A stretch of 64,000 bases of DNA from an uncultured delta proteobacterium. Its GTDB lineage: Bacteria > Desulfobacterota > Binatia > UBA9968. Shown here one piece after another: positions 50,498 to 64,000 of the stretch. Position 1 is the stretch's first letter. Every line of letters begins with the position of its first letter. The position numbers were made by a program, and so were the translations under genes. The notes beneath the pieces are model-generated. The model searched no databases. It saw only the letters and a list, made by a program, of their open reading frames with translations, and was not told the DNA's origin. The DNA is taken from positions 1 through 64,000 of the forward strand of contig CAVUZH010000020.1 of NCBI GenBank assembly GCA_963745835.1, read 5' to 3'.

Positions 50498-50647
50498 CCT
50501 TGTTCCTGTCGGCTATTCATTGCGAAGCGCAGGAATTTTCAAATTCCAATTCCTTCGATCGCTACTCTGACGAAATCGCCGTTTTGGAGAGCATTGCGCG
50601 GTCGATCTATTCAGGCGTTGCGATATTTTCCAAAGAGCACCGGACCC

Positions 50648-51880
50648 TTAAGTTAACTGGCTGGTTGCATGGGTCGAGGCTAAGACCTGCTCGACGATCG
50701 CCTCGGCGAACTGCGGATCGTTGATGTGGCAGTCGAACTCGGTCACCGGCACGGACGCCGGCAGGGCCTTCTTCAGCGCTTCCGAGAACACCGGGCACAG
50801 CGACGGGTCGTGCAAATGCCCTTCGGGGCTGTCGTGGTGCGAGAAGCCCTTCAGCGGCACGAAGAACGAGACCGGCCCCTTGGCGCTGTTGATCAGGCCG
50901 CCCATGTGCTTCGCCAACTTCTGCAGTTCGCCAGCCTCGGTGCGTACCGCGGTAATTGCCTGGTTGTGGATGTGATAACGTTTTCCCGGGAATTGTGTCT
51001 TCGCCATGTCGATGGGTCCGGACAGCATGAAGTCCGCGTTGCCCGGCGCGAAGATTACCGGCACGCCCTTCTCGAGCGCCGCTTTGGCGCGGTCCGGGCC
51101 GGCGCTGAACATGCCGTTGTTCAGATAATCGTTGATCTCGACCAGCGACACGTCGACGACCGCGCTGACGTCGCGCTCCCGCACGATCTGGTCCATCGCC
51201 ATGCCGCCGGTACCGAGCGTGTGGAACACCATCACCTCGTAGCCTTTGCTCTCCAGCGACTTGCGCACGCGCACGGTGCAGCGATCGGTGGTGCCGAGCG
51301 TCGTCATCGCGATCAGCGGCTTCGTTTCCGCGCGCACGGGCGAGTAGCTCTTCGCCATCGCGGCGGTGGCGATCGCCGCGTTGCGGAACGCGTCGCGGGT
51401 GATGCTGTTGAGCCCGGCGATGTCACATACCGGGTTCACCATGATGATGTCCTTCGCGCCGACGAACGGCCGGGTGAAGCCCGATGCCATCGTCGACACC
51501 ATCACCTTCGGCAGGCCGTACGGGAACGCCTGCATCACTATGCTGCCGAGCGTGGTGCCCATCGATCCTCCCACACCGATGATGCCGGCAATGCCATGCT
51601 TTGACTGGGCCTCCAGCGCGCACTTGACGGCTCCTTCGATCATCACTGCCTGGCACTTGCCTTCATGACGAAGGTCGCGAACCTCCTGGATCGTCTTGCC
51701 TGCCGCCGCGGCGACGGCCTCCGGCGCGATCTCGACGTTCGGATCGGTCGAATCGCGGATGCTGGCGTCGAGGTGAACGACGTCCACTCCTTCGGCCTCC
51801 AGTGTCTGCCGGACGAATTGCGCTTCCACTGCCTTGGTGTCGAGGGTCACGATCATCAGAACCTTGGGTTTGCTGCTCAT
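50648..51880 (-). CDS. UPF0261 / Tm-1-like ATP-binding domain protein
   Basis: TLDTK, GGSMGT, PYGLPKVMVST, DIAGLN, VFHTLGTGG, HINDPQFA. Confidence 0.88.
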   Translation of the reverse strand: MSSKPKVLMIVTLDTKAVEAQFVRQTLEAEGVDVVHLDASIRDSTDPNVEIAPEAVAAAAGKTIQEVRDLRHEGKCQAVMIEGAVKCALEAQSKHGIAGIIGVGGSMGTTLGSIVMQAFPYGLPKVMVSTMASGFTRPFVGAKDIIMVNPVCDIAGLNSITRDAFRNAAIATAAMAKSYSPVRAETKPLIAMTTLGTTDRCTVRVRKSLESKGYEVMVFHTLGTGGMAMDQIVRERDVSAVVDVSLVEINDYLNNGMFSAGPDRAKAALEKGVPVIFAPGNADFMLSGPIDMAKTQFPGKRYHIHNQAITAVRTEAGELQKLAKHMGGLINSAKGPVSFFVPLKGFSHHDSPEGHLHDPSLCPVFSEALKKALPASVPVTEFDCHINDPQFAEAIVEQVLASTHATSQLT

Positions 51881-52016
51881 GGCCTGTCTCCTGTCGAATG
51901 AAAGAGCACTTCAAATCGCCGGCGCCGACGGTAATCGGCACCGAGCACCGTCTCGGCGCCCTTCAGATGATAGAAATCCGCTTTTGGGAGGCTCGGCGAC
52001 GGTACATCTGCATAGA

Positions 52017-52424
52017 TTACACAGTGCGACCCATGTCGAAGACGATCTCCCGTGAGATCTTCCCGTCGCGCATCTCAAAGATGTGAACCAGCCGCATTTC
52101 AATCTTGCTGCCGATTGGAAAATGCCAGTATCCATCTTTCGCCACCTCGAACGTGACGATGCTGTCATCCACCACACGCTCTTCGGTAGCGAAGCGCTGA
52201 AGAAACTGGAACTTTACATTACGCATGGACGCAAAGAGTTCCCGGTAATTCTTGGTAGTAGCTTCCTTCCCGGAAAAAGATCGATTAAGGCCATTCGGGG
52301 CAGGTGCTTCCCAAACGATGTCGTCAGTGAAAGTCTCGAGCGCCGTTTCGACCTCATTCAGCGCTTCGCTGTGGAAGTGGCTCTCCACAGCCGCCAGATT
52401 TTGGGTTATGCGATCCCTATCCAT
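52017..52424 (-). CDS. SnoaL/NTF2-like protein
   Basis: FTDDIVWEAP, HIFEMRDGKISRE; GGAGGG RBS before ATG 52424. Confidence 0.82.
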   Translation of the reverse strand: MDRDRITQNLAAVESHFHSEALNEVETALETFTDDIVWEAPAPNGLNRSFSGKEATTKNYRELFASMRNVKFQFLQRFATEERVVDDSIVTFEVAKDGYWHFPIGSKIEMRLVHIFEMRDGKISREIVFDMGRTV

Positions 52425-52490
52425 CTCGTTCCCTCCATCTCTTGCTTTACTTCGTGTTGCCGCCAAACGCCCAGAGCGCTTTGTTTCAAG

Positions 52491-52690
52491 TCACACAATT
52501 ATTGCATCTGCTTTAAGTCGACACCCACCACGTGTTACCTCCCGGATCGATAAAGCTCGCTTGGCGCTCGTCGTACGGTATGTCTTCTGGCGGGACATGG
52601 TCGTGGCTCCAAGTCGAATGGCTCGGCCGTACACCGCATCTACGTCGTCAACGTAGACGTGGATCGACCCGACCCAGGGTGAAACATGAA
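52491..52690 (-). pseudogene. VOC/glyoxalase (PhnB-like) C-terminal fragment
   Basis: IHVYVDDVDAVYGRAIRLGAT, frameshift, then PYDERQASFIDPGGNTWWVST. Confidence 0.7.
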
Positions 52691-52945
52691 ATGATGGGAA
52701 TTTGCTTTTCGGATCTCGACGCGAGTAATTGAACCCCGGCTCCATCAGCCGCTTGCGAGCCAGCTGTCAACAGCTCGACAGCGAGTCGGACCAAAAGAGC
52801 AGCCTCCATTCGTACGATTTGGGCGTACCGTATCCGATAAAGGTGGTCTCATACAACTATAATCGGCTTGAGTGGGCAGGAAACAACCTTTGGCTCAATC
52901 ATCGTAGCTGATCCAAGGATATGTCGCTGCGAAAAATACCTTCTC

Positions 52946-53220
52946 TCAGAGGACAACGGGTTTTTTGACGAGGCTTTCGCTAACGAAAGGGAAATTGTCC
53001 GCGAGCCAGGCGTCGATTCCGCCTTCGAGTGGGCGAACCCTGGTGATTCCTTTGGCTCGCAGCAGCAGCGCTACACGGGCGCTGGTCGCTTCGTTGGGTC
53101 ACGAACAGTAGAGAACGACGTCGCGATCCCGGGGAATCTCCGTAGCGCTCTTCGATCTCTTCCATGGTTAACTCGCAGCCATGGGCTGGCGAAGTCGACA
53201 ATTGAAAGTTCTTTGGCCGT
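52946..53220 (-). pseudogene. Rhodanese-domain selenoprotein remnant (YCS-U-PNE)
   Basis: Frame from 53140: EIPRDRDVVLYCS[TGA 53101-53099]PNEATSARVALLLRAKGITRVRPLEGGIDAW...; upstream part frameshifted and deleted. Confidence 0.75.
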
Positions 53221-53236
53221 AAGATCAGAAACCAGC

Positions 53237-53627
53237 GATGTAGACTTGCCTGACTCGACTAAGTCTTCTCCAAACGATTGGCTGATCTTCGAGGATCGGA
53301 ACCAAGAAACTTGCCACCCTGGGAAGAGAGATAACCCTGTTCAAACACCGCCTCGCGGATGTCCGATTGCAGGATGCGTGCTGTCGGGCAGCGATCGACC
53401 TCCAATAAAAAGTGGAAGTGATTCGAGATCAAGACATAGGTGTCGAGAGAGATAGCGCTAGAGCACGGTCGGAAGCGCTTCGATGAAGGCCCAATAGTCA
53501 CTTTGCCTGATAAAAATCTTTGGCCTTCATGCACCAGGGCGTCACGTGATGACAACCTTTAACATAACTCGCGGGTGACGCGGCATCCCCAGCCTATAGG
53601 ATTAGTCGCCTAGGCAAGTCTGACGCC
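53237..53627 (-). mobile_element. Degenerate RAYT (Y1 HUH transposase) element with terminal inverted repeats
   Basis: ATG 53586 MPRHPRV; KIFIRQSDY.AFIEAL; YVLISNHFHFLLEV (HUH); internal deletion after ARILQS; ends AGACTTGCCT..CGACTA / TAGTCG..AGGCAAGTCT. Confidence 0.75.
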
Positions 53628-53989
53628 GAGTTTCTTGCGTAAGCTAACTCATTTAGCAGTCTCGAATGGATTAAGTCAATCAATTGGCACAACTGAGTCG
53701 AACACATCGTCATTGATTTGCGCCACCCAATCGCCGATTTCACAATCCATGCCGCGAAGGGGCAACAATGGACCACGGCGCTAAATCAGCTTAATTCGTT
53801 GGCGCCGGAAAAACGACGATGAATACATCCGCATGATAACGTCGCTTCATACGGCGAATTCTCGGTAAGAAAGCAAAAGTAAAGACGCGACCCTACGCCG
53901 GCGCTCACGTCTGCGTCAGAACGCGTTTCTTTACTTCAGTAACGAATCATTCGGGATTACCCAGGCAGAATGCCTGACGTTAAAAGAGA

Positions 53990-54226
53990 TCGAATGGCGT
54001 TGACTACTTAAAACGAGGAAGTACCCCAACACCAGGCGCTCGTCGTGCGAGTTATTGAATCGATACAGCGGGCTTAAGCAACGGATGATCGGTGAGCGGT
54101 TCGGCGGGTAGGATGAGGGGTTGGCGCGGTCGCAGACGAGACGGGAAAGGATCGAGCCGGAACCGAAGATCCGAAAGTGGTTTCAGGATCTCTCGCGCTT
54201 AAGTACTTAAGTCAAGATTTGACCCC
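53990..54226 (+). pseudogene. C-terminal HTH fragment of a second RAYT-type transposase plus its end motif
   Basis: ELLNRYSGLKQRMIGERFGG*DEG...EPKIRKWFQDL followed by TAAGTCAAGATTTGACCCC. Confidence 0.55.
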
Positions 54227-54496
54227 AACCGACCCACAACGCCATGAGAGAAATGACGTCGCGTTATCAAACTCAAAAAAGCGACGGCGGACATTTTAAT
54301 CTGCATCAAGTCAGGTGAGTGCTCTCTCATTCCCCGCCCTCCAACGGCGCTCTCAAACTCTCCGACCCTTTCAGCTTCCAACAGCCGGTCTCCTTGACGA
54401 ACGTGCGGAACTTCGCATAGCGTAAAGCTCGCAGCCGACAAAACTTTTCTGTGTAGCGGCCGCGCGATTGATCACAAATACAGGGGAGGACACCAC

Positions 54497-56158
54497 ATGG
54501 CTGATAGTAACAATGGGTTAGACAAGATCTCCGCGCTCAATCCCGTTGGATATGCGCCAAAAGTGACCCCGAAGCCGATGGCGCCGCGGCTCGACGGCCT
54601 CGACGGCAAGACCATTTACTTGGTCGATCCGCGCTTCGATGACTCCGGCCTTTTTCTGCGCCAGGTGCAAGACTGGTTCGGCGAGCACATGCCTTCGGTC
54701 AAAACTAAGCTCGTCGAAATGTCGAGCGTCTACACCAAGGACGATCCGAAAACGTGGGAGATGATCAAGGCCAACGGCGACGGCGCGATTATCGGTGTCG
54801 GCCATTGAAGCACCTGCGCGCCGGCGGTCGCCGTGCATGCAATCGCGCTTGATAGTAAATACGGTGTTCCCACCGTTGCTATCCATACCAACGTCTTCGA
54901 GAAAGCCGTGCAGTCGGTGACACGCATGCACGGCATGCCCGAAGCGCGCCACACGTTCGTTCCCCAGCCGGTGATGGGCAAGACCGCGGCGCAGCTGCGC
55001 GCCTACGTCGACGGCAAAAGTCCGATCAGCGGCCGGCCGGTGATGCAGGAAGTCATCGAAGGTCTCACCCGTCCGGCCGAGGGAGATCGGATCAGAGAAA
55101 CCAAATTCGAGCGTACTACGCCGCGGCTCGTGGACGCCGACTCTGACGAGAACCTGCAGCGATTGTTCCTCGACAATAATTGGACCGACAAACTGCCGAT
55201 TGTTTTGCCCACGGAAAAGCGCGTAGTGGAAATGCTCTCTCACACGAGCCACAAGCCGGGCGAAATCGCCGGACATATTCGCTCGAACCAGTTTCGCCAG
55301 CACTGGGAATTTACTGTCGAGCAAGTCGCGGTCAACGCGGTGATGGCGGGCGCCCGCCCGGAATATTTTCCGGTCATTCTCGCTCTCGCAGCCAGCGGCG
55401 TGAGCGCGCGCGGCAGCACGACCAGCTCCATGGCGGCAATGGTCGTCGTCAACGGCCCGATCCGAAACGAGATCGCCATGAACTCCGGCACCGGCGCCAT
55501 GGCGCCGTACAATCATGCCAATGCGACCATCGGGCGCGCCTACGGCTTGCTGTCGCAAAATCTCCAGGGCGGCTCGATTCCAGGGGACAGCTACATGGGC
55601 TCCCAGGGCAACGGCTATGCCTACGGCACGGTCACATTCGCTGAGAATGAGGAACGCAGCCCGTGGACACCGTTCCACACGCAGCACGGATTCAAGCCGA
55701 CCGACAGCACGGTGAGCATATTCACCGGCTGCCGCTCGACCGCGTTTACCCTCGGCGTGCGCGAGAAGTACTGGCGCGAGCACGTGCGCAACATGCTACG
55801 CGGCATGGACGCACACAGCGCGCCGACGTTTTTGCTCGATCCCATCGCCGCGCGTCAGTACATCGACCGCGGCGGGTTTGACACCAAGGAAAAGCTCATC
55901 CAGTGGATTTATGAAAACGCATTGATGCCGGCCGGCGAATACTGGGATTATCAGTTGATTCAGAATTACATCTACCCACGCGCGACCTTCGGCGAGGAAC
56001 CCTACGCCTCCAAGCTGAAAGCCGCCCCCGACGAGATGGTCAAGATGTTCAAGCCCGACGAAATTCACGTCGTGGTCGTCGGCGGCGAAACCAATGGCTA
56101 CTGGCGCATCATGGGATGCAGTTATCAGAAAACTGTTTCGGTGGATGAGTGGAGATAG
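54497..56158 (+). CDS. Predicted selenoprotein, 553 aa: UGSC-like UxxC domain (Sec104) fused to a WTDxLP-type partner domain
   Basis: In-frame TGA at 54806-54808 in IIGVGH-U-STC-APAVAVHAIALDSKYGVPTV; frame stays open to TAG 56158; GGAGG RBS at 54497 but none evident at 54833; SECIS-like hairpin follows. Confidence 0.88.
54815..54841 (+). promoter_or_regulatory. Putative bacterial SECIS element
   Basis: TGCGCGC-CGGC-GGTC-GCCG-TGCATGCA hairpin; G-starting apical loop begins 17 nt after the UGA. Confidence 0.65.
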
Positions 56159-56170
56159 ATTTACTGGCTC

Positions 56171-56297
56171 GTTCAAAACGTTCAAGCCGTTCAACCGCTA
56201 CGCTCCGTTCAAACCCCCACCTCTCGTCCTCCCCCGCGACGCGGGGGAGGATGAAGGAGGGGGCTTCAACGATTTGAACTTTTTGAACGGCTTGAAC
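56171..56297. repeat. Composite palindromic element: 9-bp GTTCAA/TTGAAC arms around a GC-rich REP-like hairpin
   Basis: GTTCAAAAC GTTCAAGCC GTTCAACC...; core TCCTCCCCCGC GAC GCGGGGGAGGA; ...TTTGAAC TTTTTGAAC GGCTTGAAC. Confidence 0.75.
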
Positions 56298-56311
56298 CAA
56301 AGAATCTAAAT

Positions 56312-57241
56312 ATGTCTGAGTATGATGTAATCGTCGTCGGTTCCGGCCTCGCCGGGTTAACCGCCGGCTTGTTTTCCGCGCGGCACGGCCTTTCCACTCT
56401 GATTTTGGAATCGAATATTCCCGGCGGGCATCTCATCAGCATCGAGAAGATCGAGGATTTCCCCGGTTTTCCGGATGGCATCGCCGGTTATGACCTTTGC
56501 CCGACAGTTCAGCGCCAGGCGGCGGACCACGGAGCCGAGTTTGAACGCGCCGAAGTCGTCAAGCTGGAAGCCAAAGATCGTTTCTGGTCGGTTGCAATCG
56601 ACGAACAATCGCATCTCACCAAAGCCGTCATCGTCGCCACGGGTTCGGCGCTCAAAGAACTCGGCGTGCCTGGCGAAGAGAAACTGATGGGTCGAGGCGT
56701 AAGCCACTGCGCAAGCTGCGATGGCCCGCTCTACGACGGCCAGGTCGTCGGCGTGGTCGGCGGCGGTGACTCCGCGCTCCAGGAAGCGCTGACACTTGCC
56801 AATTTCGCGCAGTCGGTTTTAGTTTTTCAGCGCGAAGCAAGTTTTACCGGCCATCGTTGGTATCTCGACCGAGTATTGAACGAGTCGAAGATCGCGCCAC
56901 GCTATCGAACCACCGTCGAAGAGGTTTTGGGCGATGATAAACTCAGCGGCGTGCGGGTGCGCAACGTGGGTACAAGCGAGACATCTGAAATCGAGCTGGC
57001 AGGCTTATTCGTTTATGTCGGCTTGAAGCCGAATACTGCGTTGTTGAAAAATGTTCTAACGCTCAGCGACACCGGCCACGTGCCAACGGACGGCTGGATG
57101 AAAACCGAGCGGAACGGCCTGTACGCCGTAGGCGACATTCGCCAGGACTCGGCGGCGCAGGCGATTACGTCGGCGGGCGACGGCGCGACCGCGGCGATTG
57201 CGGCGTATCGATACATAAAGAGCCAGTTTCATGGAAGCTGA
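56312..57241 (+). CDS. trxB: Thioredoxin reductase-like flavoprotein
   Basis: GSGLAG, GRGVSHCASCDG (CxxC), GGGDSA, YAVGDIR, QAITSAGDG. Confidence 0.85.
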   Translation: MSEYDVIVVGSGLAGLTAGLFSARHGLSTLILESNIPGGHLISIEKIEDFPGFPDGIAGYDLCPTVQRQAADHGAEFERAEVVKLEAKDRFWSVAIDEQSHLTKAVIVATGSALKELGVPGEEKLMGRGVSHCASCDGPLYDGQVVGVVGGGDSALQEALTLANFAQSVLVFQREASFTGHRWYLDRVLNESKIAPRYRTTVEEVLGDDKLSGVRVRNVGTSETSEIELAGLFVYVGLKPNTALLKNVLTLSDTGHVPTDGWMKTERNGLYAVGDIRQDSAAQAITSAGDGATAAIAAYRYIKSQFHGS

Positions 57242-57285
57242 GGTCGGCAGAAACCAACTGGGATTTTCCGATTTCGCGCACGCGC

Positions 57286-57350
57286 GTCGTTCCCGTGAAA
57301 ACGGGAACCCAGGTTTGCATAGTCTGGACTCTCGCCTCCGCGGCAGTGAC
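57286..57350. repeat. Non-autonomous copy of the GIY-YIG-flanking REP pair
   Basis: GTCGTTCCCGTGAAAACGGGAACCCAGG...CTGGACTCTCGCCTCCGCGGCAGTGAC, matching the ends of 62858-63127. Confidence 0.75.
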
Positions 57351-57367
57351 GAACGCGAGGAGAAAGC

Positions 57368-58423
57368 ATGAGAAGGTCTGCAATCCGGGTTAGCGTTATC
57401 GCCTCACTCATGTTTGCCGCTTGCATTCTATTTCTTACCCGGCCTCTCCACGCCCAACCCAACTTCTTCCAGGGAACATCGGTGAGAATCATCCGCGGCG
57501 GCCAGCCGGGCGATCTCTATGACCTATGGACGCGCCACATTGCAACTTATTTGGGAAAACACATTCCGGGAAATCCAAGCGTCACAGTGCAAAACATGCC
57601 GGGCGCGGGTTCGGTGATTGCGGCCAACTATGTGTACAACGTCGCCAAGCCGGACGGCCTCACTCTGGGCTCGCTCAATTCGGCCATCTACATGGATCAA
57701 CTGATCGGCCGCAAGGAAGTCCAGTTCGATTGGGCGAAGTTCAATTGGATCGGTACACCGGAACCGACCGAGCTGCTGTTCATTATGCGCGGCGACAGTC
57801 CGTATAAATCCATCGACGATATGCGCAAGGGCGGCGAGTCGCCAAAATGCGGCTCCACGGGCACCGCTTCGATCACCTATCACATTCCCAAGCTCCTCGA
57901 CGACGTGCTCGGCGCCAAGTCCACCATCATTGCCGGCTATCAAGGCGCCGGCGATATCGACGTCGCCCTCGAACGCGGCGAGTTGCAGTGCCGGCTGATC
58001 ACCATCGCGGCGTTTTTTGGCCGCGAGCCGCATATCTCCTGGTATAAAAAGGGGTTCACTCGTCCACTCGTGCAAACCGGCCGCAAGCGGGATCGCTTGT
58101 TACCGGATACGCCTACTTTTCATGAGCTATTGGATCGCTACAAGGCGAGCGACGCCGATCGCCGCTTGGTCACGTTGATTACCGCGTCCAATGAGTTTGG
58201 GCGGCCGTGGACCGCGCCGCCGAACATGCCCGCCGATCGAATCAAGATCCTTCGCGACGCTTGGGATAAGACGCTCAAAGATCCCGATCTCCTGGCCGAT
58301 GCAAAGAAGCGCGGCTGGCCCGTCGACCCCATCAGTGGTGAACAGCTCTCCGAATTGGCTAAAGAAGTAATTGCGCAGCCGCCCGAGGTGGTGGCGAGAT
58401 TGAAGAAACTCTTGGCAGAGTAA
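57368..58423 (+). CDS. TctC/Bug family tripartite tricarboxylate transporter substrate-binding protein
   Basis: Signal peptide, KHIPGNP, NMPGAG, AKPDGLTL, GY.G..D...ALERGE. Confidence 0.9.
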   Translation: MRRSAIRVSVIASLMFAACILFLTRPLHAQPNFFQGTSVRIIRGGQPGDLYDLWTRHIATYLGKHIPGNPSVTVQNMPGAGSVIAANYVYNVAKPDGLTLGSLNSAIYMDQLIGRKEVQFDWAKFNWIGTPEPTELLFIMRGDSPYKSIDDMRKGGESPKCGSTGTASITYHIPKLLDDVLGAKSTIIAGYQGAGDIDVALERGELQCRLITIAAFFGREPHISWYKKGFTRPLVQTGRKRDRLLPDTPTFHELLDRYKASDADRRLVTLITASNEFGRPWTAPPNMPADRIKILRDAWDKTLKDPDLLADAKKRGWPVDPISGEQLSELAKEVIAQPPEVVARLKKLLAE

Positions 58424-58451
58424 GATTAGTTTAAATTTTCGCAATGTTTTA

Positions 58452-58578
58452 CAGGCCGATCAAAAAGGCCCAGATGCGAGGCGCGCGATTTATCGACGAG
58501 CGTAGGCGTACGTTAATGGTTACGTTGGAGCGAGGCGGTTGAGCGCAACAAAGCAGGTGGACCTTTTTCATCGGCCTG
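58452..58578 (+). mobile_element. MITE-like element, family A
   Basis: Terminal inverted repeats CAGGCCGATCAAAAAGG / CCTTTTTCATCGGCCTG. Confidence 0.72.
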
Positions 58579-58590
58579 ATAGGAGGTTTT

Positions 58591-59694
58591 ATGCCGGCTA
58601 AATATCGCGCCGACCACATCGGCAGCCTGCTTCGACCCGCTGAGCTGCTGCAAGCACGGAACGCAAGTTCTGACACCGTGCAGCTGCGCGCGCTCGAGGA
58701 CAAACACATCCTGCGGGTCATCGCGCGTCAGAAGGATCTCGGCTTCAAGATCTTTACCGACGGGGAGCTGCGCCGCAACAACTTCATGAGCGATTTCAAC
58801 GACGCCGTGGAAGGCATCGATGAAGGCGTGGCCGTGGCGCGCACTTGGCAAACCGGCACGGGCCCATCGTCCCGCCCTTCCATGGTGCCAGGCACGATCG
58901 TGGCCAAAATCAAACAGAAACGGCGTCTCACCGGTCATGAATTCGCTTTCATCAAGCAGCACAGCCCCGGCGACATCAAGGTCACCTTGCCCACCGCCAA
59001 TCAGTTTCCAGCGATCTATTATAAGAAAGGCATCAGCGACAAAGTCTATCCGAACTACTCCGATTTCTTGTGGGATATCGTGCCAATCTTCAAGGCGGAG
59101 ATTCAGGCGTTGGTCGATGAAGGAGCGCAGTACGTGCAAATCGACGCGCCTCGCTACAGCTATTACATCGATCCGAAATGGCGCAGCTACGTGAAAAATG
59201 AAATGGGGCTCGATCCCGACCAGGCGCTCGACGAAGCGATTAACATTGACAACGCTTGTCTGGAAGGCGCGAAACGGGCGGGCGCAGTTCTGGCGATTCA
59301 CCTTTGCCGCGGGAACAACCGCAGCCAGTGGTACGCCGAAGGCGGCTACGACGCGATCGCGGAAAAATTATTCGGCCGGCTCAAGGTCGATGCTTTTCTC
59401 CTCGAGTACGAGTCCGAGCGCGCCGGCACCTTCGAACCTCTGCGCTTCGTGCCGCGCGGTAAGACGGTGGTCCTGGGCCTCGTCAGCAGCAAGCTGGCTG
59501 ATATGGAATCGCCGGATCATCTCGCAAGAAGAATCGACGAAGCGAGCAAGTACGTACCGCTCGAGAATCTCGCTCTCAGCCCCCAATGCGGCTTTGCTTC
59601 GACCATGGAAGGCAACCTGCTCACGGAAGACCAACAGTGGCAAAAACTTGGCTTGGTCGTCGAGACAGCGCGCAAGGTATGGAGCACAGTTTAA
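58591..59694 (+). CDS. Cobalamin-independent methionine synthase II-like (single-barrel MetE/YxjG family) zinc enzyme
   Basis: RADHIGSLLRP, TDGELRR, HLCRGNN, LLEYE, SPQCGFAS. Confidence 0.9.
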   Translation: MPAKYRADHIGSLLRPAELLQARNASSDTVQLRALEDKHILRVIARQKDLGFKIFTDGELRRNNFMSDFNDAVEGIDEGVAVARTWQTGTGPSSRPSMVPGTIVAKIKQKRRLTGHEFAFIKQHSPGDIKVTLPTANQFPAIYYKKGISDKVYPNYSDFLWDIVPIFKAEIQALVDEGAQYVQIDAPRYSYYIDPKWRSYVKNEMGLDPDQALDEAINIDNACLEGAKRAGAVLAIHLCRGNNRSQWYAEGGYDAIAEKLFGRLKVDAFLLEYESERAGTFEPLRFVPRGKTVVLGLVSSKLADMESPDHLARRIDEASKYVPLENLALSPQCGFASTMEGNLLTEDQQWQKLGLVVETARKVWSTV

Positions 59695-59757
59695 CTTTGA
59701 CGCCTTAGATCGTTGGTGGTATCTATCGTCGCGCTCAAGAACACCCAAGGAGGCAAC

Positions 59758-60951
59758 ATGAGACGGCTGATTTGCGCTGCATTCTTTATTGTGCTCGCAC
59801 TGTTCGCTTCAAGCTCCGAAGGCGAGAGTCAGACGATCAAAGTCGGTGCGGTCGTGCCACTCACCGGCCGTTACGCGGCGCTCGGCGGCCAGGTCAAAAC
59901 CGGTTATGAGCTTGCCGTCCAGCACATCAACGCGGCCGGCGGTGTGTCGGTCGGCGGCAAAAAAATGCAGATCGAGCTGACGATGCTCGACGACGAGTCC
60001 GACCCGACCAAAACCGTCGCGCGCCTGGAAACACTCGCCACCCAGGGCGTGGTTGCCTACCTGGGCGGAGCGGGCTCCGATCTCCATGGCGCGGCGGCTT
60101 CCATCGCCGATAAGAACAAAATTCCCTACCTCGGCGTCGCTTTCGCCTTCTATGGAATCCACCAGCAGGGGCTGCGCTATCTCTTCTCGCCCTTTCCCAA
60201 ATCTCCCGACCTGACCAGAGAAACTTTTGTTTTTCTCGATGCGATGATTCCCGCCGCACAGCGGCCGCGTAAAGTTGCGCTGTTTCTCGAACGGACGGAC
60301 TGGGGAAAGGAGATGGGCTCTGGTTGGCAAGGTCTCGCCAAGAAACATGGTTACGAAGTGGTCGCCAGCGGCGAATACGCGCCCGGCTCAAAGGATTTTT
60401 CGGATCTGATCCTGAAAGCCAAAACAGCGGACGCCGAAGCGGTGTTTGCGCTGCCGTCGCCGCCCGACGGCATGACGATCGTCAAACAGATGAAAGAATT
60501 GGATTTCAACACCAAGGTGAATCTCTTCATCCGCGCCGCCGATCCACCCGTATGGTCGCAGAACTTGAGCAAAGACGGCGATTACGTGCTGCTTTCGCCC
60601 GGCTGGCACTTCGCCGCGAAGTATCCCAGAGTGAGCGAGATCAACGACGCGCATCAAAAATTATTCAACCGGCCGGCCGATCCTCTGGTCGGTCCGTCCT
60701 ACGCTTGCTTGCAGATCCTTGCCGATGCGGTCACGCGGGCCAAGACGATTGACCGCGATAAGCTACGCGATGCCGTCGCCGCGACGAAAATGACGACGGT
60801 CGTCGGCCCCGTGCGCTTTCGCTCCGACGGGACCGGCGAAGTCAAAGTGTTTTTCCAGCAATGGCTCAAAGGCAAGCAGGAACTCGTCTGGCCCAAGGAG
60901 TTCGCCACTGCGTCGTTCGGCTATCCCGCGCCACCGTTCGACAAGCGATAA
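59758..60951 (+). CDS. Branched-chain amino acid-type ABC substrate-binding protein
   Basis: IKVGAVVPLTG, DDESDP; GGAGG RBS before ATG 59758. Confidence 0.9.
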   Translation: MRRLICAAFFIVLALFASSSEGESQTIKVGAVVPLTGRYAALGGQVKTGYELAVQHINAAGGVSVGGKKMQIELTMLDDESDPTKTVARLETLATQGVVAYLGGAGSDLHGAAASIADKNKIPYLGVAFAFYGIHQQGLRYLFSPFPKSPDLTRETFVFLDAMIPAAQRPRKVALFLERTDWGKEMGSGWQGLAKKHGYEVVASGEYAPGSKDFSDLILKAKTADAEAVFALPSPPDGMTIVKQMKELDFNTKVNLFIRAADPPVWSQNLSKDGDYVLLSPGWHFAAKYPRVSEINDAHQKLFNRPADPLVGPSYACLQILADAVTRAKTIDRDKLRDAVAATKMTTVVGPVRFRSDGTGEVKVFFQQWLKGKQELVWPKEFATASFGYPAPPFDKR

Positions 60952-60995
60952 CCTTTTTGACGCATACGTAAACAGCGACAAGAACGGAGAATAAA

Positions 60996-61219
60996 AAGCA
61001 CGAAATCCGAAGCACGAAGCTCTAAACAAATTCGAATGATCCAAGCATGGCAAATTCCAAACGAGCCCAAATCGGATTCGAGGTTTTGGATTTTCTGGTT
61101 TTGGATTTATTTTGGCTCCGGTTTGTTTCGAATTTCGATATTCGGATTTCGGATTTACCCTTGTGGGGTTTGTTTCGGTCTGCGGGCCTCTTTCGTGCTT
61201 CGAATTTCGGATTTGGATT
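60996..61219. repeat. Heptamer-repeat palindromic element
   Basis: AAGCACG AAATCCG AAGCACG AAGCTCT...; complementary arms TTTCG AATTTCG ATATTCG GATTTCG and TTTCG TGCTTCG AATTTCG GATTT. Confidence 0.7.
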
Positions 61220-61253
61220 CCTTGGGATCTTGGCGCGACAAATCTGCAATCTA

Positions 61254-61976
61254 GTGTCCCTCCTAACACTCGCATCCGTTTCTAAGTCTTTTGGCGGTGT
61301 CACCGCCGTAAAAAATGTCAGTTTAACTGTCGAACCCGGCGAGATCCTGGGCGTCATGGGCCCCAACGGCTCGGGAAAAACGACGCTGTTCAACCTCGTG
61401 AGCGGTGCGCTGGCGCCGGACAGCGGGGAAATCCGTATCGACGGCGAGTGCACCAACGGCTTACGCCCTCATCAACTCTGCCGGCGCGGAGTTGCGCGCA
61501 CGTTCCAATTGGTTCGGCCGTTTCTCGCGTTGACGGTATCGGAGAACGTCCTAGTGGGCCTCGGCTACGGGCGGGAGAAACTCAGCGGCGCGCCGGCACG
61601 TCAAAGGGTGGCGGAACTTCTAGACTCCGCAGGTCTGTTTGGACGATCGGATCGCCTCGCAAGCACACTCACGGTCATGGATCGCAAGCGCCTGGAGCTG
61701 GCGCGCGCGCTCGCGACGTCGCCCAAGCTTTTGCTGCTCGATGAGTTCATGGCGGGTTTGACACCCACTGAAACCGCGGCGGCGCTTCGCCTCATCAGGG
61801 AACTGCAGCGCCAAGGTCTAACAATCGTGCTGGTCGAGCATATCGTCTGGGCTTTGCTTGACGTTTCCCATCGCATCGTGGTGCTGAGCGCCGGGGAAAA
61901 AATCGCCGACGGCGCGCCGGCCAAGATCGCCAACGATCCGCAGGTGATCGAAGTCTATCTCGGCGGAAACACGTGA
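61254..61976 (+). CDS. livG: Branched-chain ABC transporter ATP-binding protein
   Basis: GPNGSGKTT, ARTFQ, LLLDE, VEH, VIEVYLG; likely GTG start at 61254. Confidence 0.85.
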   Translation: MSLLTLASVSKSFGGVTAVKNVSLTVEPGEILGVMGPNGSGKTTLFNLVSGALAPDSGEIRIDGECTNGLRPHQLCRRGVARTFQLVRPFLALTVSENVLVGLGYGREKLSGAPARQRVAELLDSAGLFGRSDRLASTLTVMDRKRLELARALATSPKLLLLDEFMAGLTPTETAAALRLIRELQRQGLTIVLVEHIVWALLDVSHRIVVLSAGEKIADGAPAKIANDPQVIEVYLGGNT

Positions 61977-61979
61977 AGA

Positions 61980-62069
61980 GTTCAAATCGTTTAAGCCGTT
62001 CAAACCGCCAGAAAAAATACAAAAACAACGGTCTTAGAAAACGAGTTGAACTTTTTGAACGGCTTGAAC
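61980..62069. repeat. GTTCAA/TTGAAC palindromic element
   Basis: GTTCAAATC GTTTAAGCC GTTCAAACC ... TTGAAC TTTTTGAAC GGCTTGAAC; right arm matches the 56171 element. Confidence 0.72.
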
Positions 62070-62084
62070 GATTGTTATTGAGAT

Positions 62085-62810
62085 ATGCTCCAAGTAACTA
62101 ATCTCCACGTCGCCTACGGGGAATTACCCGCGCTCCAGGGCGTCAGCCTAAAGATTCAGCCGGGCGAGTTGGTGGCGCTCGTCGGTCCCAACGGCGCCGG
62201 CAAGACAACGCTGCTGAAAACCATTTCCGGCTTGTTGCCGGCGCGGGCCGGCACGGTTCGTTGGCAAGACGAGGCGATCAACGAGGCCTCACCGCAGCGC
62301 ATCGTAGAGCGAGGCATCGCCCTTGTTCCCGAAGGACGAAAGCTGTTCGCCGCGATGACAGTCAGGGAAAACCTCGAGCTTGGCGCCTTCATTTTGCGGG
62401 CGCAGAAAGAGAAATTTAGTCAGCTCGAAAAAATTTTCGCTCTTTTCCCGCGCCTCGCCGAACGCCAGCGTCAACGCGCAGGATCGCTCTCGGGCGGCGA
62501 GCAGCAGATGCTCGCTCTCGGACGCGCGCTCATGGGGTTGCCGCGGCTCCTTTTGCTCGATGAACCCTCGCTCGGCTTGGCGCCGCGCGTGGTCGAGTCG
62601 ATGATGTCGATCTTGTCCGATCTCCACCGCGGCGGCATGAGCGTGCTGATCGTGGAGCAAAACGTGCACGCCGTTCTCGCGCTCGCAGAGCGCGCTTATA
62701 TTCTCGAAGGCGGGCGCATCGTCGGCGAGGGCGAAGGCCGAAAACTCCTCGAAGATGATCATGTACGTGCGGCCTACCTCGGTCCCCTGGCGCGAGTTGG
62801 TGAGTCGTGA
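62085..62810 (+). CDS. livF: Branched-chain ABC transporter ATP-binding protein
   Basis: GPNGAGKTT, VPEGR, LSGGEQQML, DEPSLGLAP, VEQN. Confidence 0.9.
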   Translation: MLQVTNLHVAYGELPALQGVSLKIQPGELVALVGPNGAGKTTLLKTISGLLPARAGTVRWQDEAINEASPQRIVERGIALVPEGRKLFAAMTVRENLELGAFILRAQKEKFSQLEKIFALFPRLAERQRQRAGSLSGGEQQMLALGRALMGLPRLLLLDEPSLGLAPRVVESMMSILSDLHRGGMSVLIVEQNVHAVLALAERAYILEGGRIVGEGEGRKLLEDDHVRAAYLGPLARVGES

Positions 62811-62857
62811 TCATCGCCGAACGTGGGCTCACCACAACGAGCGCAAGCCACTTCAGC

Positions 62858-63127
62858 GTCATTCCCGTGAAAACGGGAATCCAGGCTAATTATGCCTAAA
62901 GAGCCAGCAGTCTACATTCTTTCAAGCAAGCGCAATGGAACGCTTTACGTCGGCGTAAGCTGCACCCCGATATGATTTCGGCAATAACCAGAGAGAAACA
63001 GATCAAGAAATGGAACCGCGCATGGAAGCTTGAGCTAATCGAAGGGCACAATCCCGAATGGAAGGACTTGTGGGACGAAATCATTTAAAAACGGACGGAC
63101 ATAGATTCTCGCTTTCGCTGGAATGAC
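62858..63127 (+). mobile_element. REP-flanked GIY-YIG nuclease element; gene 62892-63088 is internally deleted
   Basis: GTCATTCCCGTGAAAACGGGAATCCAGG; MPKEPAVYILSSKRNGTLYVGV; frameshift; LHPDMISAITREKQIKKWNRAWKLELIEGHNPEWKDLW; TAGATTCTCGCTTTCGCTGGAATGAC. Confidence 0.82.
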
Positions 63128-63184
63128 TTTACGCAACTGTTGGAGCTTCACTGCAGCGCTGAAAATTCTCGTCGGCTTTGTAAA

Positions 63185-64000
63185 ATGATTCTCACCCAAC
63201 AGCTCATACTCGGAGTTCTCGTCGGCGGGCTTTACGGGCTCGCCGCCGCCGGGCTGTCTCTTACGTTCGGTGTCCTTCGGGTGTTGAACGTCGCGCACGG
63301 CGAGCTGCTCATGCTCGGCGGCTACGGCACGTTCTGGCTGTTCACTCTTTGGAAGATCGATCCGTTCGCCTCGCTTCTCGCCGTCGCTCCGGCCATGTTC
63401 CTTTCGGGAGCGTTGCTTTACGTCGCGTTGTTTCAATTTGTCGTAAAAGCGCACGAGGAAGCGCGCATCAAGAACTCGCTGCTCATCGGCTTCGGTCTGA
63501 CCCTCGTTCTTCACGCCCTCGCGATACAACTTTGGACCGCCGACGAGCGCAGCGTCACAACAGCGTACTCCGGAGCCGTGCTGCGCCTCGGTCCCTTTGC
63601 GGTGCCGTGGCTGCGTCTAAGCAGCCTGCTGTTCGCCTTCGCGATCCTCGCCGCGCTGCACATGTTTCTTTCGGAAACGCGCTGGGGCCGGGCGATCCGC
63701 GCCACGGCGGAGGATTGGGAGGCCGCCGCGCTCATGGGCATCCCGGTGGGCAAAACCTACCTGCTGGCATTCGCTCTCGGCACCGCGCTGGCGGGTGTTG
63801 CCGGCGGGTTGGTCAGTATCTCTTATTCGATCAGTCCTTCGATCGGCATCGAGTGGACCTTAAAGGCTTTGATCGTCATCGTGCTCGCCGGCATGGGCTC
63901 GCTTTTCGGCAGCTTCGCCGGCGGCATTCTACTCGGCCTCGCTGAGGCGATGAGCGTGGTGTTTGTCGGCGGCCCGTACCGCGAGGTCATCGGCTTGATT
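63185..64000 (+). CDS. livH: Branched-chain ABC transporter permease, runs off the window end
   Basis: MILTQQLILGVLVGGLYGLAAAGLSLTFGVLRVLNVAHGELLMLGGY; TRWGRAIRA...AALMGI; absent from the ORF track because it is incomplete. Confidence 0.88.
   Translation, partial: MILTQQLILGVLVGGLYGLAAAGLSLTFGVLRVLNVAHGELLMLGGYGTFWLFTLWKIDPFASLLAVAPAMFLSGALLYVALFQFVVKAHEEARIKNSLLIGFGLTLVLHALAIQLWTADERSVTTAYSGAVLRLGPFAVPWLRLSSLLFAFAILAALHMFLSETRWGRAIRATAEDWEAAALMGIPVGKTYLLAFALGTALAGVAGGLVSISYSISPSIGIEWTLKALIVIVLAGMGSLFGSFAGGILLGLAEAMSVVFVGGPYREVIGLI

What the first reader, a model, noticed from the sequence alone, without database searches (positions are those of the whole stretch)
54497..64000. Candidate selenium-dependent reductase pathway: selenoprotein + TrxR + TctC + MetE-like enzyme + Liv transporter
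Seen: all genes are co-oriented and separated mostly by inserted palindromic repeats; no thioredoxin gene is present. Known: Sec-dependent glycine-type reductases draw electrons through thioredoxin reductase, and MetE-like Zn enzymes activate thiols for alkyl transfer. Inference: the TrxR may directly re-reduce the UxxC centre in a system that imports and reductively cleaves an organosulfur compound or modified amino acid. I do not know of a characterised pathway with this composition. The link to the distal transporter genes is weaker than the selenoprotein-TrxR link.
Basis: inference. Interest (0 to 1): 0.75.

Follow-up and report, generated by a model that had tools for sequence, protein, structure and literature searches.

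The report
UGSC selenoprotein with its own reductase
A selenium-containing protein of a widespread but functionally unknown family sits next to its own private thioredoxin-reductase-like enzyme, probably as a redox pair, while the neighbouring transporter and methyltransferase genes look like a separate unit.

Summary
The genes are real and co-oriented. 54497-56158 encodes a 553-aa selenoprotein with an in-frame UGA (U104, motif GH-U-S-T-C). It is a long form of the UGSC family (PF24696), fused to a ~360-aa domain that has no Pfam model and no clear structural relative.

The UGA is kept in 77 of 80 related loci and is followed by a hairpin that is invariant at synonymous sites. tRNA-Sec and SelB are present in the genome.

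The thioredoxin-reductase (TrxR) link holds. A sub-cut-off TrxR paralogue lies directly downstream in 23 of 24 Binatia-like loci and 11 of 20 Chloroflexota loci, but in 0 of 16 Rokubacteria loci. All four non-canonical TrxR paralogues of this genome lie beside UGSC genes, and the canonical TrxB is elsewhere.

The UGSC domain always comes with the unknown domain, split or fused: 7 of 7 loci here and 12 of 12 in other genomes.

The wider "pathway" does not hold. TctC, the MetE-like gene and the Liv genes form a second block seen only in close relatives, and the gap after TrxR varies from 26 to 4894 nt. TctC-like and NMT1-like binding proteins number 79 and at least 150 in this genome.

Verdict: a probable dedicated flavoprotein/selenoprotein redox pair with an unknown substrate.

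The parts
54497..56158 (+). Gene for the 553-aa long-form UGSC-family selenoprotein (stop codon included)
   Evidence: Frame is open with TGA=U. PF24696 scores 82.9 bits against a cut-off of 25, over residues 14-171. More than 6,400 homologues were found. The AF2 model has pLDDT 91.8 and pTM 0.90.
54806..54808 (+). In-frame UGA read as selenocysteine (U104) in the motif G-V-G-H-U-S-T-C
   Evidence: The codon is TGA in 77 of 80 related loci and TGC in 2.
54818..54836 (+). SECIS-like hairpin: a 7-bp stem with one bulged base and a GGUC loop, starting 12 nt after the UGA
   Evidence: RNAalifold on 22 sequences finds 7 pairs, one of them with a compensatory change. The nucleotides are invariant at synonymous sites. 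Both Cys-form loci carry changes in the stem.
54497..55081 (+). UGSC domain (residues 1-195), predicted five-stranded alpha/beta sandwich with U104 at the start of helix 3
   Evidence: Secondary structure. Best structural matches are flavodoxin-, CheY- and B12-binding-like domains, Z 8.5-11 over residues 34-195.
55082..56155 (+). C-terminal domain (residues 196-553) of unknown function. Elsewhere it occurs as a separate ~355-370-aa protein next to short UGSC genes.
   Evidence: No Pfam or NCBIfam hit. 3,852 clusters at 50% identity match at E <= 1e-3. Separate copies occur in this genome. No PDB match: Foldseek gives nothing at E <= 1e-3, and the best VIA Z is 5.5 over part of the domain.
56159..56311 (.). 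Spacer holding a nested palindromic repeat element
   Evidence: Inverted repeats I5 and I6. Related copies occur elsewhere in the genome.
56312..57241 (+). TrxR-like flavoprotein (309 aa) with a C-A-S-C redox motif. It is a non-canonical paralogue.
   Evidence: TIGR01292 scores 313.6 bits, below the cut-off of 343.45. Sequence. It is 38% identical to the genome's canonical TrxB, which has HRRDALRA where this protein has FQREASFT. Orthologues lie directly downstream of the selenoprotein gene in 23 of 24 and 11 of 20 loci.
57368..58423 (+). TctC-like periplasmic binding protein (351 aa, N-terminal signal-like sequence). It is an orphan, with no TctA or TctB beside it.
   Evidence: PF03401 scores 41.5 bits against 27. 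Sequence. It is one of 79 TctC matches in a genome with 14 TctA matches, the nearest TctA at C20:119521.
58591..59694 (+). Short MetE-like enzyme (367 aa, catalytic domain only) with H-x-C, E and C zinc-ligand positions present
   Evidence: PF01717 scores 52.9 bits. NF005085 scores 298 bits, below its cut-off of 313. Sequence.
59713..60951 (+). LivK-like binding protein of a branched-chain-amino-acid-type ABC transporter, 18 nt after the MetE-like gene
   Evidence: PF13458 scores 177.5 bits. RNA-library contigs bridge the MetE/LivK junction (records 6 and 15).
61047..61976 (+). LivG-like ATPase. The true start is probably near 61257, because the matches begin at residue ~71.
62085..62810 (+). 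LivF-like ATPase
63140..64000 (+). LivH-like permease. It runs to 64057 beyond the window and is followed by LivM-like at 64054-64968.

Best explanation
The region holds two separable units.

Unit 1 (54497-57241) is a two-gene redox module. It has a cytoplasmic selenoprotein of the UGSC family: a UGSC domain carrying the U104-x-x-C107 centre, fused to a conserved ~360-aa domain of unknown fold. It also has a dedicated low-molecular-weight TrxR-like flavoprotein.

The proposed mechanism has three steps.
1. The flavoprotein takes electrons from a pyridine nucleotide. Its NADPH-specific HRR motif is not conserved, so NADH is possible. The electrons pass through FAD to its C-A-S-C disulfide.
2. 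That dithiol reduces the selenenylsulfide of the UGSC domain directly, so no thioredoxin is needed.
3. The reduced selenol/thiol pair acts on a substrate held by the C-terminal domain.

Shown here:
- The UGA is a conserved Sec codon with a SECIS-like hairpin, and the Sec machinery is present.
- The UGSC domain and the C-terminal domain are always together.
- The TrxR-like gene is a separate paralogue kept next to UGSC genes over deep divergence.

Inferred: electron transfer between the two proteins, the donor nucleotide, and the existence of a small-molecule or protein substrate. The substrate is unknown.

Unit 2 (57368-64968) is TctC-like + MetE-like + LivKGFHM. It is a neighbouring uptake and thiol-alkylation block that travels with unit 1 only in close relatives.
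For: Selenoprotein.
- TGA is in frame and kept in 77 of 80 loci from several phyla.
- The hairpin is invariant at synonymous sites and has one compensatory pair.
- tRNA-Sec and SelB are present.
- RNA-library contigs from 2 studies cover the UGA region (records 9, 18, 25).

TrxR link.
- TrxR-like lies directly downstream in 23 of 24 Binatia-like and 11 of 20 Chloroflexota loci that have at least 1 kb of flank. TrxR identity there falls to 43-60%.
- On the selenoprotein tree, the label 'TrxR adjacent' sits on several branches and needs 6 changes, against 26.8 in shuffles.
- In this genome the 4 strong sub-cut-off TrxR matches (265-313 bits) all lie within 4 kb of a UGSC gene. The single above-cut-off TrxB lies on C13.
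- In 5 of 5 other genomes the UGSC-adjacent TrxR is a sub-cut-off paralogue (280-321 bits) and a canonical one lies elsewhere.
- C-A-[ST]-C is invariant in 19 aligned sequences.
- No thioredoxin gene is on the contig.

Domain pairing.
- Each of the 5 short UGSC genes here is followed by a 355-370-aa homologue of the C-terminal domain.
- In 12 of 12 UGSC loci from 5 other genomes, that domain is fused or adjacent.

Two units.
- The TrxR-to-TctC gap is 26-4894 nt.
- The TctC-to-MetE gap is 98-520 nt in 10 of 11 loci.
- The MetE-to-LivK gap is 22-28 nt in 6 of 8 loci.
- Unit 2 orthologues appear in 0 of 24 non-Binatia loci.
Against: - No TrxR-like gene follows the selenoprotein gene in 0 of 16 Rokubacteria-type loci or 0 of 7 loci from other lineages.
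- The paralogous long form in this genome (C15:89738) has none.
- One genome of the phylum has 15 UGSC copies but only the canonical TrxR at E <= 1e-30. The dedicated reductase is therefore optional.
- In two other genomes, sub-cut-off TrxR paralogues lie on contigs without a UGSC match (G028:C183, G031:C190).
- Many full-length homologues without a TGA have lost both redox residues, for example P0124, P0140, P0151 and P0203. The fold therefore also serves without a U/C-x-x-C centre.
- A 153-nt spacer with a strong palindrome separates the two genes. No RNA-library contig bridged it; the nearest starts inside it at 56268.
- No binding or electron transfer was tested.
- Only the 80 best of 325 related loci were examined, all at least 67% identical.
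Confidence: 0.6

Rival explanations
1. All nine genes form one selenium-dependent pathway that imports an organosulfur compound or modified amino acid (TctC, Liv), activates a thiol (MetE-like) and cleaves it reductively (selenoprotein + TrxR).
For: All genes are co-oriented with short spacers. Among Binatia-like loci with at least 6 kb of flank, the MetE-like gene follows within 10 kb in 12 of 20 and TctC in 14 of 20. The MetE-like zinc-ligand positions are intact.
Against: Unit 2 orthologues follow the pair in 0 of 24 loci outside the closest relatives. The TrxR-to-TctC gap ranges from 26 to 4894 nt and is filled by unrelated binding-protein genes. The other six UGSC modules of this genome have no MetE-like or Liv genes beside them. 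Binding-protein genes are hugely expanded here. RNA-library contigs bridged only the MetE/LivK junction.
Confidence: 0.1
2. The TrxR-like gene and the selenoprotein gene are co-regulated, for instance in a redox-stress response, but do not exchange electrons. The selenoprotein is reduced by the general thioredoxin system or another donor, and the TrxR-like enzyme has a different substrate.
For: Many lineages keep the selenoprotein without an adjacent TrxR-like gene. Some sub-cut-off TrxR paralogues lie away from UGSC genes. The genome has a canonical TrxB and three strong thioredoxin matches.
Against: Four of four non-canonical TrxR paralogues in this genome lie beside UGSC modules, in three different gene orders. 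That is hard to explain without a specific functional tie. No other candidate substrate gene is conserved beside the TrxR-like gene across the 80 loci.
Confidence: 0.2
3. The U-x-x-C centre is not a catalytic redox pair. It binds or carries a metal, selenium or sulfur species, and the flavoprotein serves to release or reduce the bound species, in the manner of mercuric or persulfide reductases.
For: Sec/Cys pairs bind soft metals and chalcogens (general knowledge, recalled). The C-terminal domain has no conserved Cys or His in the long forms. About half of the homologues, including all five separate partner proteins here, carry a Cys at the M-A-G-C position.
Against: No metal- or sulfur-trafficking genes recur in the neighbourhoods. 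The TrxR-like enzyme is of the low-molecular-weight TrxR type, not the MerA type.
Confidence: 0.1

Closest known systems
UGSC-containing selenoprotein family (PF24696; NCBIfam NF041046)
   Same: The N-terminal domain matches PF24696 above the cut-off. The Sec sits in a U-x-x-C motif after a beta strand. The family is abundant in environmental data. A fusion of UGSC to a conserved 'Unknown_1' domain was reported in 2008 (PMC2398784, passages read).
   Different: The motif is U-S-T-C rather than U-G-S-C. The score against the NF041046 equivalog is 59 bits, below its cut-off of 125. The literature calls the function unknown (PMC1976440 and PMC13188914, passages read). In the passages with 'UGSC' that I read in four of the nine papers found, there is no mention of a dedicated TrxR-like partner or of the obligate pairing with the second domain. 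Figure S1A of the 2008 paper is a supplement that I could not open, so I could not check whether 'Unknown_1' is the same as this C-terminal domain.
Thioredoxin reductase / thioredoxin system (low-molecular-weight TrxB, TIGR01292)
   Same: The flavoprotein aligns over the full TrxB length. It has an FAD-binding N-terminus, a C-A-S-C redox disulfide and a GGGDSA dinucleotide motif. The proposed flow, nucleotide to FAD to dithiol to a U/C-x-x-C acceptor, is the same logic.
   Different: The score is below the TrxB equivalog cut-off, and identity to the genome's own TrxB is 38%. The HRRxxxR stretch is not conserved (motif recalled; sequences). The acceptor is not a thioredoxin. Its model is a five-stranded alpha/beta sandwich whose best matches are flavodoxin-like, and it is fused to a large second domain.
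AhpF/AhpC and other dedicated TrxR-like reductase/acceptor pairs
   Same: A TrxR-family flavoprotein is encoded beside the one protein it serves. The TrxR-like protein also scores against AhpF-type models (TIGR03143, 254 bits; TIGR03140, 208 bits; both below their cut-offs).
   Different: There is no AhpF N-terminal thioredoxin-like domain (the protein has 309 aa) and no peroxiredoxin gene nearby.
Glycine/betaine/proline reductase selenoprotein B (GRDB family, PF07355)
   Same: It is a selenoprotein with a U-x-x-C motif that in known systems draws electrons from the thioredoxin system (recalled; the motif is listed in PMC2398784, Table 2).
   Different: No PF07355 match at E <= 10 for the UGSC domain. 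There are no GrdA, GrdC, GrdD or GrdE-type genes in the cluster. Real GrdA (with TGA) and GRDB-family genes lie on contig C3.

Membership tests
UGSC family (seleno)protein | Match to Pfam PF24696 above the gathering score | tested here: met
   82.9 bits against a cut-off of 25, residues 14-171.
UGSC family (seleno)protein | Match to the NCBIfam equivalog NF041046 above its cut-off | tested here: not met
   59 bits against a cut-off of 125. The model has 147 positions and fits the short forms; this protein is a divergent long subfamily.
UGSC family (seleno)protein | In-frame UGA (or Cys) at the first position of a U-x-x-C motif | tested here: met
   GVGH-U-STC. TGA in 77 of 80 loci and TGC in 2. 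The literal motif is USTC, not UGSC; the five short paralogues have UGSC.
UGSC family (seleno)protein | SECIS element after the UGA, and Sec-insertion machinery in the genome | tested here: met
   Conserved hairpin, tRNA-Sec, SelB at 394 bits against 242. SelA and SelD were not searched.
UGSC family (seleno)protein | Thioredoxin-like fold (suggested in PMC2398784) | tested here: inconclusive
   The AF2 model has the order b-a-b-a-b-a-b-a-b. The 50 best VIA rows are flavodoxin-, CheY- and Rossmann-like, Z 8.5-11, with no thioredoxin-fold entry among them. A fold that is not listed is not excluded.
Thioredoxin-disulfide reductase TrxB (TIGR01292) | Score above the equivalog cut-off | tested here: not met
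   313.6 bits against 343.45. The genome's C13 copy scores 418.
Thioredoxin-disulfide reductase TrxB (TIGR01292) | Redox-active C-x-x-C and FAD/NAD(P)H dinucleotide motifs | tested here: met
   CASC and GGGDSA are present. C133 and C136 are invariant in 19 sequences.
Thioredoxin-disulfide reductase TrxB (TIGR01292) | NADPH-specifying HRRxxxR stretch (motif recalled) | tested here: not met
   FQREASFT here, against HRRDALRA in the canonical paralogue. The stretch is variable across the subfamily.
Thioredoxin-disulfide reductase TrxB (TIGR01292) | Reduces thioredoxin | not testable with these tools
   This needs an enzyme assay. No thioredoxin gene is on the contig.
Glycine/proline reductase selenoprotein B (PF07355) | Sequence match to the GRDB family | tested here: not met
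   No match at E <= 10 for residues 1-195 or at E <= 0.01 for the whole protein.
Glycine/proline reductase selenoprotein B (PF07355) | Companion genes (GrdA and others) in the cluster | tested here: not met
   The only GrdA match in the genome is at C3:1192467, and the GRDB matches are on C3 and C14.
Cobalamin-independent methionine synthase, catalytic-domain-only type | PF01717 match and zinc-ligand positions | tested here: met
   PF01717 scores 52.9 bits against 21. H-L-C, E-Y-E and Q-C-G are present (ligand pattern recalled).
Cobalamin-independent methionine synthase, catalytic-domain-only type | Score above the NCBIfam subfamily or equivalog cut-offs | tested here: not met
   NF005085 scores 298.2 against 313. 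NF004875 scores 235.6 against 576. The substrate therefore cannot be assigned.
Tripartite tricarboxylate transporter receptor (TctC) | PF03401 match | tested here: met
   41.5 bits against 27.
Tripartite tricarboxylate transporter receptor (TctC) | Adjacent TctA/TctB membrane genes | tested here: not met
   The genome has 14 TctA matches. The nearest on this contig is at 119521, about 61 kb away.
Branched-chain-amino-acid-type (Liv) ABC transporter | Binding protein, two permeases and two ATPases of the family | tested here: met
   PF13458, PF02653 and PF00005 + PF12399 all match. LivM-like follows at 64054-64968, identified by ORF only. All equivalog scores are far below their cut-offs, so the substrate is open.

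The most novel reading that the evidence does not exclude
UGSC domain plus its ever-present partner domain is a previously undescribed selenoenzyme class built on a fold with no solved relative. In several phyla it is driven by its own thioredoxin-independent, probably NADH-using TrxR-like reductase. That would give the first functional handle on one of the most abundant selenoprotein families in environmental data.
Probability: 0.35. Interest if true: 0.75.

Novelty: new variant of a known kind. Interest (0 to 1): 0.55.

Why it matters
UGSC-containing proteins rank among the most abundant selenoprotein families in ocean and freshwater metagenomes (PMC2398784). A 2026 review still lists them as functionally uncharacterised (PMC13188914).

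This locus and its relatives turn that open question into three concrete, testable statements.
1. The redox domain never works alone. It always comes with one specific ~360-aa domain, either split or fused.
2. In Binatia and many Chloroflexota it has a private TrxR-like reductase, which names the likely electron source.
3. Natural Cys forms exist in Xanthobacteraceae- and Hyphomicrobiales-type genomes (so far seen here only as metagenome-assembled genomes). If a culturable host carries one, genetics and biochemistry become feasible without selenocysteine expression.

It also warns against reading long co-oriented gene runs in these genomes as pathways. Binding-protein families are so expanded that adjacency to them carries little weight.

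Tried and rejected
- **Complex prediction.** I did not resend it, so binding remains untested.
- **Fold of the whole protein and the C-terminal domain.** Foldseek against the PDB gave nothing at E <= 1e-3. VIA wide search matched the whole model only over the N-terminal domain. For the C-terminal domain alone the best Z was 5.5, over residues 216-346 of that model. The weak rows (class I fumarate hydratase, cyanuric acid hydrolase, OmpA-like) are not usable.
- **Sequence route to structures.** A profile search of PDB sequences gave a best E of 0.23.
- **Family and atlas searches for the C-terminal domain.** Pfam scans of 26 homologues at E <= 5 gave no shared family other than UGSC. The ESM Atlas returned only unnamed clusters, and then nothing among named ones.
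- **AhpD-like partner in Rokubacteria.** The CMD-family gene just upstream in 8 loci has no C-x-x-C in any copy. Rejected.
- **Sec in the C17 TrxR-like gene.** The in-frame TGA reported for C17:19079 is a frameshift near the N-terminus, not a Sec codon at the active site.
- **RNA motifs and signals.** There are no riboswitches or other Rfam families in 50000-64000 at E <= 1, apart from two chance miRNA-model hits on the palindrome. The promoter and terminator scan was uninformative: 2 promoter-like sites against 3.6 expected.
- **Single-sequence fold of the region after the UGA.** It was no better than shuffles (z = 0.95). The hairpin shows only in the alignment.
- **RNA-library contigs.** Four runs from 2 studies cover parts of most genes. 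They bridge only MetE/LivK and do not span the selenoprotein/TrxR, TrxR/TctC or TctC/MetE spacers. Contigs cannot prove or exclude co-transcription, and DNA carry-over is possible.
- **Neighbour clustering.** Across 81 loci, no conserved third partner emerged beyond TrxR. The recurrent neighbours belong to large expanded families: SDR, amidohydrolase_2, CoA-transferase III, Zn-ADH, luciferase-like, NMT1 and ABC_sub_bind.

Full report
**What is there**

On the + strand the region encodes the following:
- a 553-aa protein with one in-frame TGA (54497-56158)
- a 309-aa TrxR-like flavoprotein (56312-57241)
- a 351-aa TctC-like binding protein with a signal-like N-terminus (57368-58423)
- a 367-aa MetE-like catalytic-domain protein (58591-59694)
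- a Liv-type ABC transporter, LivK/G/F/H, with LivH ending at 64057 and LivM at 64054-64968, just beyond the window

The window is G000:C20:1-64000, in a 7.28-Mb, 25-contig assembly. The closest relatives are metagenome-assembled genomes labelled Candidatus Binatia.

The genes upstream are on the other strand: an FAD monooxygenase, UPF0261 and a SnoaL-like protein. About 1 kb before the selenoprotein gene shows no convincing ORF.

The spacers hold palindromic repeats that belong to dispersed repeat families. No thioredoxin gene is on the contig.

**The selenoprotein is real**

- Read with TGA=U, the frame gives G-V-G-H-U-S-T-C.
- Residues 14-171 match Pfam UGSC (PF24696) at 82.9 bits against a cut-off of 25. 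The NCBIfam equivalog built on short forms is missed, at 59 bits against 125.
- In 80 related loci from Binatia-, Chloroflexota-, Rokubacteria- and other-labelled genomes, the codon is TGA in 77 and TGC in 2. My pattern did not find it in 1.
- In 22 diverse sequences, the ~25 nt after the UGA are nearly invariant even at third codon positions. They form a 7-bp hairpin with a GGUC loop and one compensatory G-C to C-G change.
- The two Cys-form loci carry changes in that stem. This is only two controls.
- The genome has tRNA-Sec and SelB.
- It holds seven UGSC genes, all with one TGA: two long and five short.
- Contigs of four RNA libraries from 2 studies cover parts of the gene, including the UGA region. 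DNA carry-over cannot be excluded.

**The protein is a fusion of two partners that always go together**

- Residues ~196-553 have no Pfam or NCBIfam model.
- This part alone finds 3,852 clusters at 50% identity with E <= 1e-3. They include stand-alone ~350-400-aa proteins, and ~710-aa tandem duplicates that lack a UGSC domain.
- Each of the five short UGSC genes in this genome is followed by a separate 355-370-aa homologue, 24-35% identical, sharing the W-[TS]-D-G-L-P-x-x-P-P-T stretch.
- In 12 of 12 UGSC loci taken from five other genomes of the phylum, the domain is fused or adjacent. In two of these only its first ~210 residues match, and they lie upstream.
- Zhang and Gladyshev (PMC2398784, passages read) reported a UGSC/'Unknown_1' fusion. 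The figure is a supplement I could not open, so I assume but have not shown that it is the same domain.

**Structure**

- The AF2 model of the whole protein is confident: pLDDT 91.8, pTM 0.90.
- The UGSC domain is a b-a-b-a-b-a-b-a-b sandwich with U104 between strand 3 and helix 3.
- Its best matches are flavodoxin-, CheY- and B12-binding-like domains, Z 8.5-11. No thioredoxin-fold entry is among the 50 rows shown. The earlier 'likely Trx-like fold' is therefore not supported by the model, though it is not excluded.
- The C-terminal domain, modelled alone at pLDDT 84.8, has no usable match. Foldseek gave nothing at E <= 1e-3, and the best VIA Z was 5.5 over a sub-domain.

**The TrxR link**

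The flavoprotein:
- It aligns end to end with TrxB but scores below the equivalog cut-off, 313.6 against 343.45.
- It has C-A-S-C and GGGDSA.
- It carries FQREASFT where the genome's canonical TrxB (C13, 418 bits) has HRRDALRA. The two are 38% identical.

Conservation in the related loci, counting only those with at least 1 kb of downstream sequence (67 of 80):
- A TrxR-like gene starts within 600 nt, on the same strand, in 23 of 24 Binatia-like loci. The 24th has it at +1454, after an inserted TctC-like gene.
- It does so in 11 of 20 Chloroflexota loci, 0 of 16 Rokubacteria-type loci and 0 of 7 others.
- Its identity to the window's protein there is 43-60% in Chloroflexota.
- On a tree of 81 long-form proteins, the label lies on several branches. 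It needs 6 changes, at least 2 of them forced by well-supported branches, against 26.8 in shuffles. One locus under 500 aa was dropped from this tree.

Evidence from whole genomes:
- In this genome the four strong sub-cut-off TrxR matches (265-313 bits) are at C20:56321, C2:82904, C3:314048 and C17:19079. Each lies within 4 kb of a UGSC gene, in three different gene orders. The C17 copy is frameshifted.
- In five other genomes the UGSC-adjacent copy is again a sub-cut-off paralogue, with a canonical TrxB elsewhere.

Evidence against a universal tie:
- Rokubacteria-type loci have no adjacent TrxR-like gene.
- The long paralogue on C15 has none.
- A genome with 15 UGSC copies has only the canonical TrxR.
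- Two sub-cut-off TrxR paralogues in other genomes lie on contigs without a UGSC match.

The reductase is therefore a frequent and specific companion, but an optional one.

**The rest of the cluster is a second unit**

- Among Binatia-like loci with at least 6 kb of downstream flank (20 loci), orthologues at 60% identity or more are found as follows: TrxR in 19, TctC in 14, MetE-like in 12, LivK in 9. Later genes often fall off the 10-kb flank. Among 24 such loci from other groups, none has TctC, MetE-like or Liv orthologues.
- The TrxR-to-TctC gap ranges from 26 to 4894 nt and exceeds 2 kb in 6 of 14 loci. It is filled by other binding-protein genes.
- The TctC-to-MetE gap is 98-520 nt in 10 of 11 loci. 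The MetE-to-LivK gap is 22-28 nt in 6 of 8 loci and 18 nt in the window.
- RNA-library contigs bridge the MetE/LivK junction and no other spacer.
- The genome has 79 TctC matches against 14 TctA matches, and at least 150 NMT1-like matches. Only 150 of 400 NMT1 candidates were scored, and all of those were below 1e-17. A binding-protein gene next to any given gene is therefore weak evidence.
- The other UGSC modules have NMT1-, SBP_bac_6- or TctC-type binding proteins beside them, but no MetE-like or Liv genes.

**Mechanism**

The best-supported reading is a dedicated electron chain: pyridine nucleotide, then FAD, then C133/C136 of the TrxR-like enzyme, then U104/C107 of the UGSC domain, then a substrate held by the C-terminal domain.

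Only the anatomy and the gene linkage are shown. Every transfer step is inferred, and the substrate is unknown.

Two observations limit the reading:
- Many TGA-free homologues have lost both redox residues.
- About half of the homologues, including all five split partner proteins here, carry a Cys at M-A-G-C where the window's protein has Ala.

**Comparison and novelty**

- The gene is a member of the known UGSC family (long subfamily). The literature still calls its function unknown (PMC1976440 and PMC13188914, passages read).
- The system works like a TrxR/Trx or AhpF/AhpC pair, but it is neither. The reductase fails the TrxB cut-off, and the acceptor is not modelled as a thioredoxin.
- It is not a glycine-type reductase. 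There is no GRDB match, and real Grd genes lie elsewhere.
- Two literature searches bear on novelty. 'UGSC' + 'selenoprotein' found 9 papers, and I read the passages with 'UGSC' in 4 of them. 'Binatota' + 'selenoprotein' found 0 papers.
- In those passages I saw no mention of the dedicated reductase or of the obligate domain pairing.
- I rate the system a new variant of a known kind, of moderate interest.

Noticed in passing
G000:C20:65259-66266 (just beyond the window; L094:1259-2263): A 335-aa IS200/Y1-type transposase-like gene (PF01797, E 2.3e-8) directly follows LivM. It may be the kind of enzyme that spreads the palindromic repeats seen in the spacers of this cluster (the link is recalled and was not tested).
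   Followed up: partly
window 62892-63085: The 375-nt LivF/LivH spacer holds two out-of-frame pieces of a small ORF. The first piece weakly matches the GIY-YIG domain (E 0.0054, 17.4 bits, below the cut-off). It looks like a decayed small nuclease gene inserted in the transporter operon.
   Followed up: partly
G000 genome-wide: There is an extreme expansion of orphan binding-protein genes. The genome has 79 TctC matches against 14 TctA matches. It has at least 150 NMT1-like matches, and 400 candidates before scoring stopped.
   Followed up: partly
G000:C17:19040-19939 (L089): The TrxR-like gene near the C17 UGSC module is frameshifted close to its N-terminus. This is either an assembly error or a pseudogene. 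The in-frame TGA reported there is not a Sec codon.
   Followed up: yes
G000:C3:1192467-1197394: A GrdA gene with an in-frame TGA and a GRDB-family gene lie about 3.4 kb apart. Two further GRDB-family genes without stops are at C3:675066 and C3:761351. The genome therefore probably also has a glycine/betaine-reductase-type system.
   Followed up: no
G034 (same phylum), 15 places listed: One 4.4-Mb genome carries 15 UGSC matches, 13 of them with a TGA, and nearly all are long forms (open frames of 558-607 aa). At E <= 1e-30 it has only the canonical TrxR.
   Followed up: partly
P0186, P0230, P0232, P0253, P0266 (proteins of ~710-740 aa): The ~710-740-aa forms lack a UGSC domain; the two compared (P0232, P0186) are tandem duplicates of the unknown C-terminal domain, each half with an M-A-G-C cysteine. 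The domain therefore also exists without the selenoprotein part.
   Followed up: partly
window 61001-61260: The LivK/LivG spacer carries several copies of a short T/G-rich unit (TTTCGGATTT-like) within inverted repeats. A 36-59-nt piece recurs on at least six other contig positions.
   Followed up: partly
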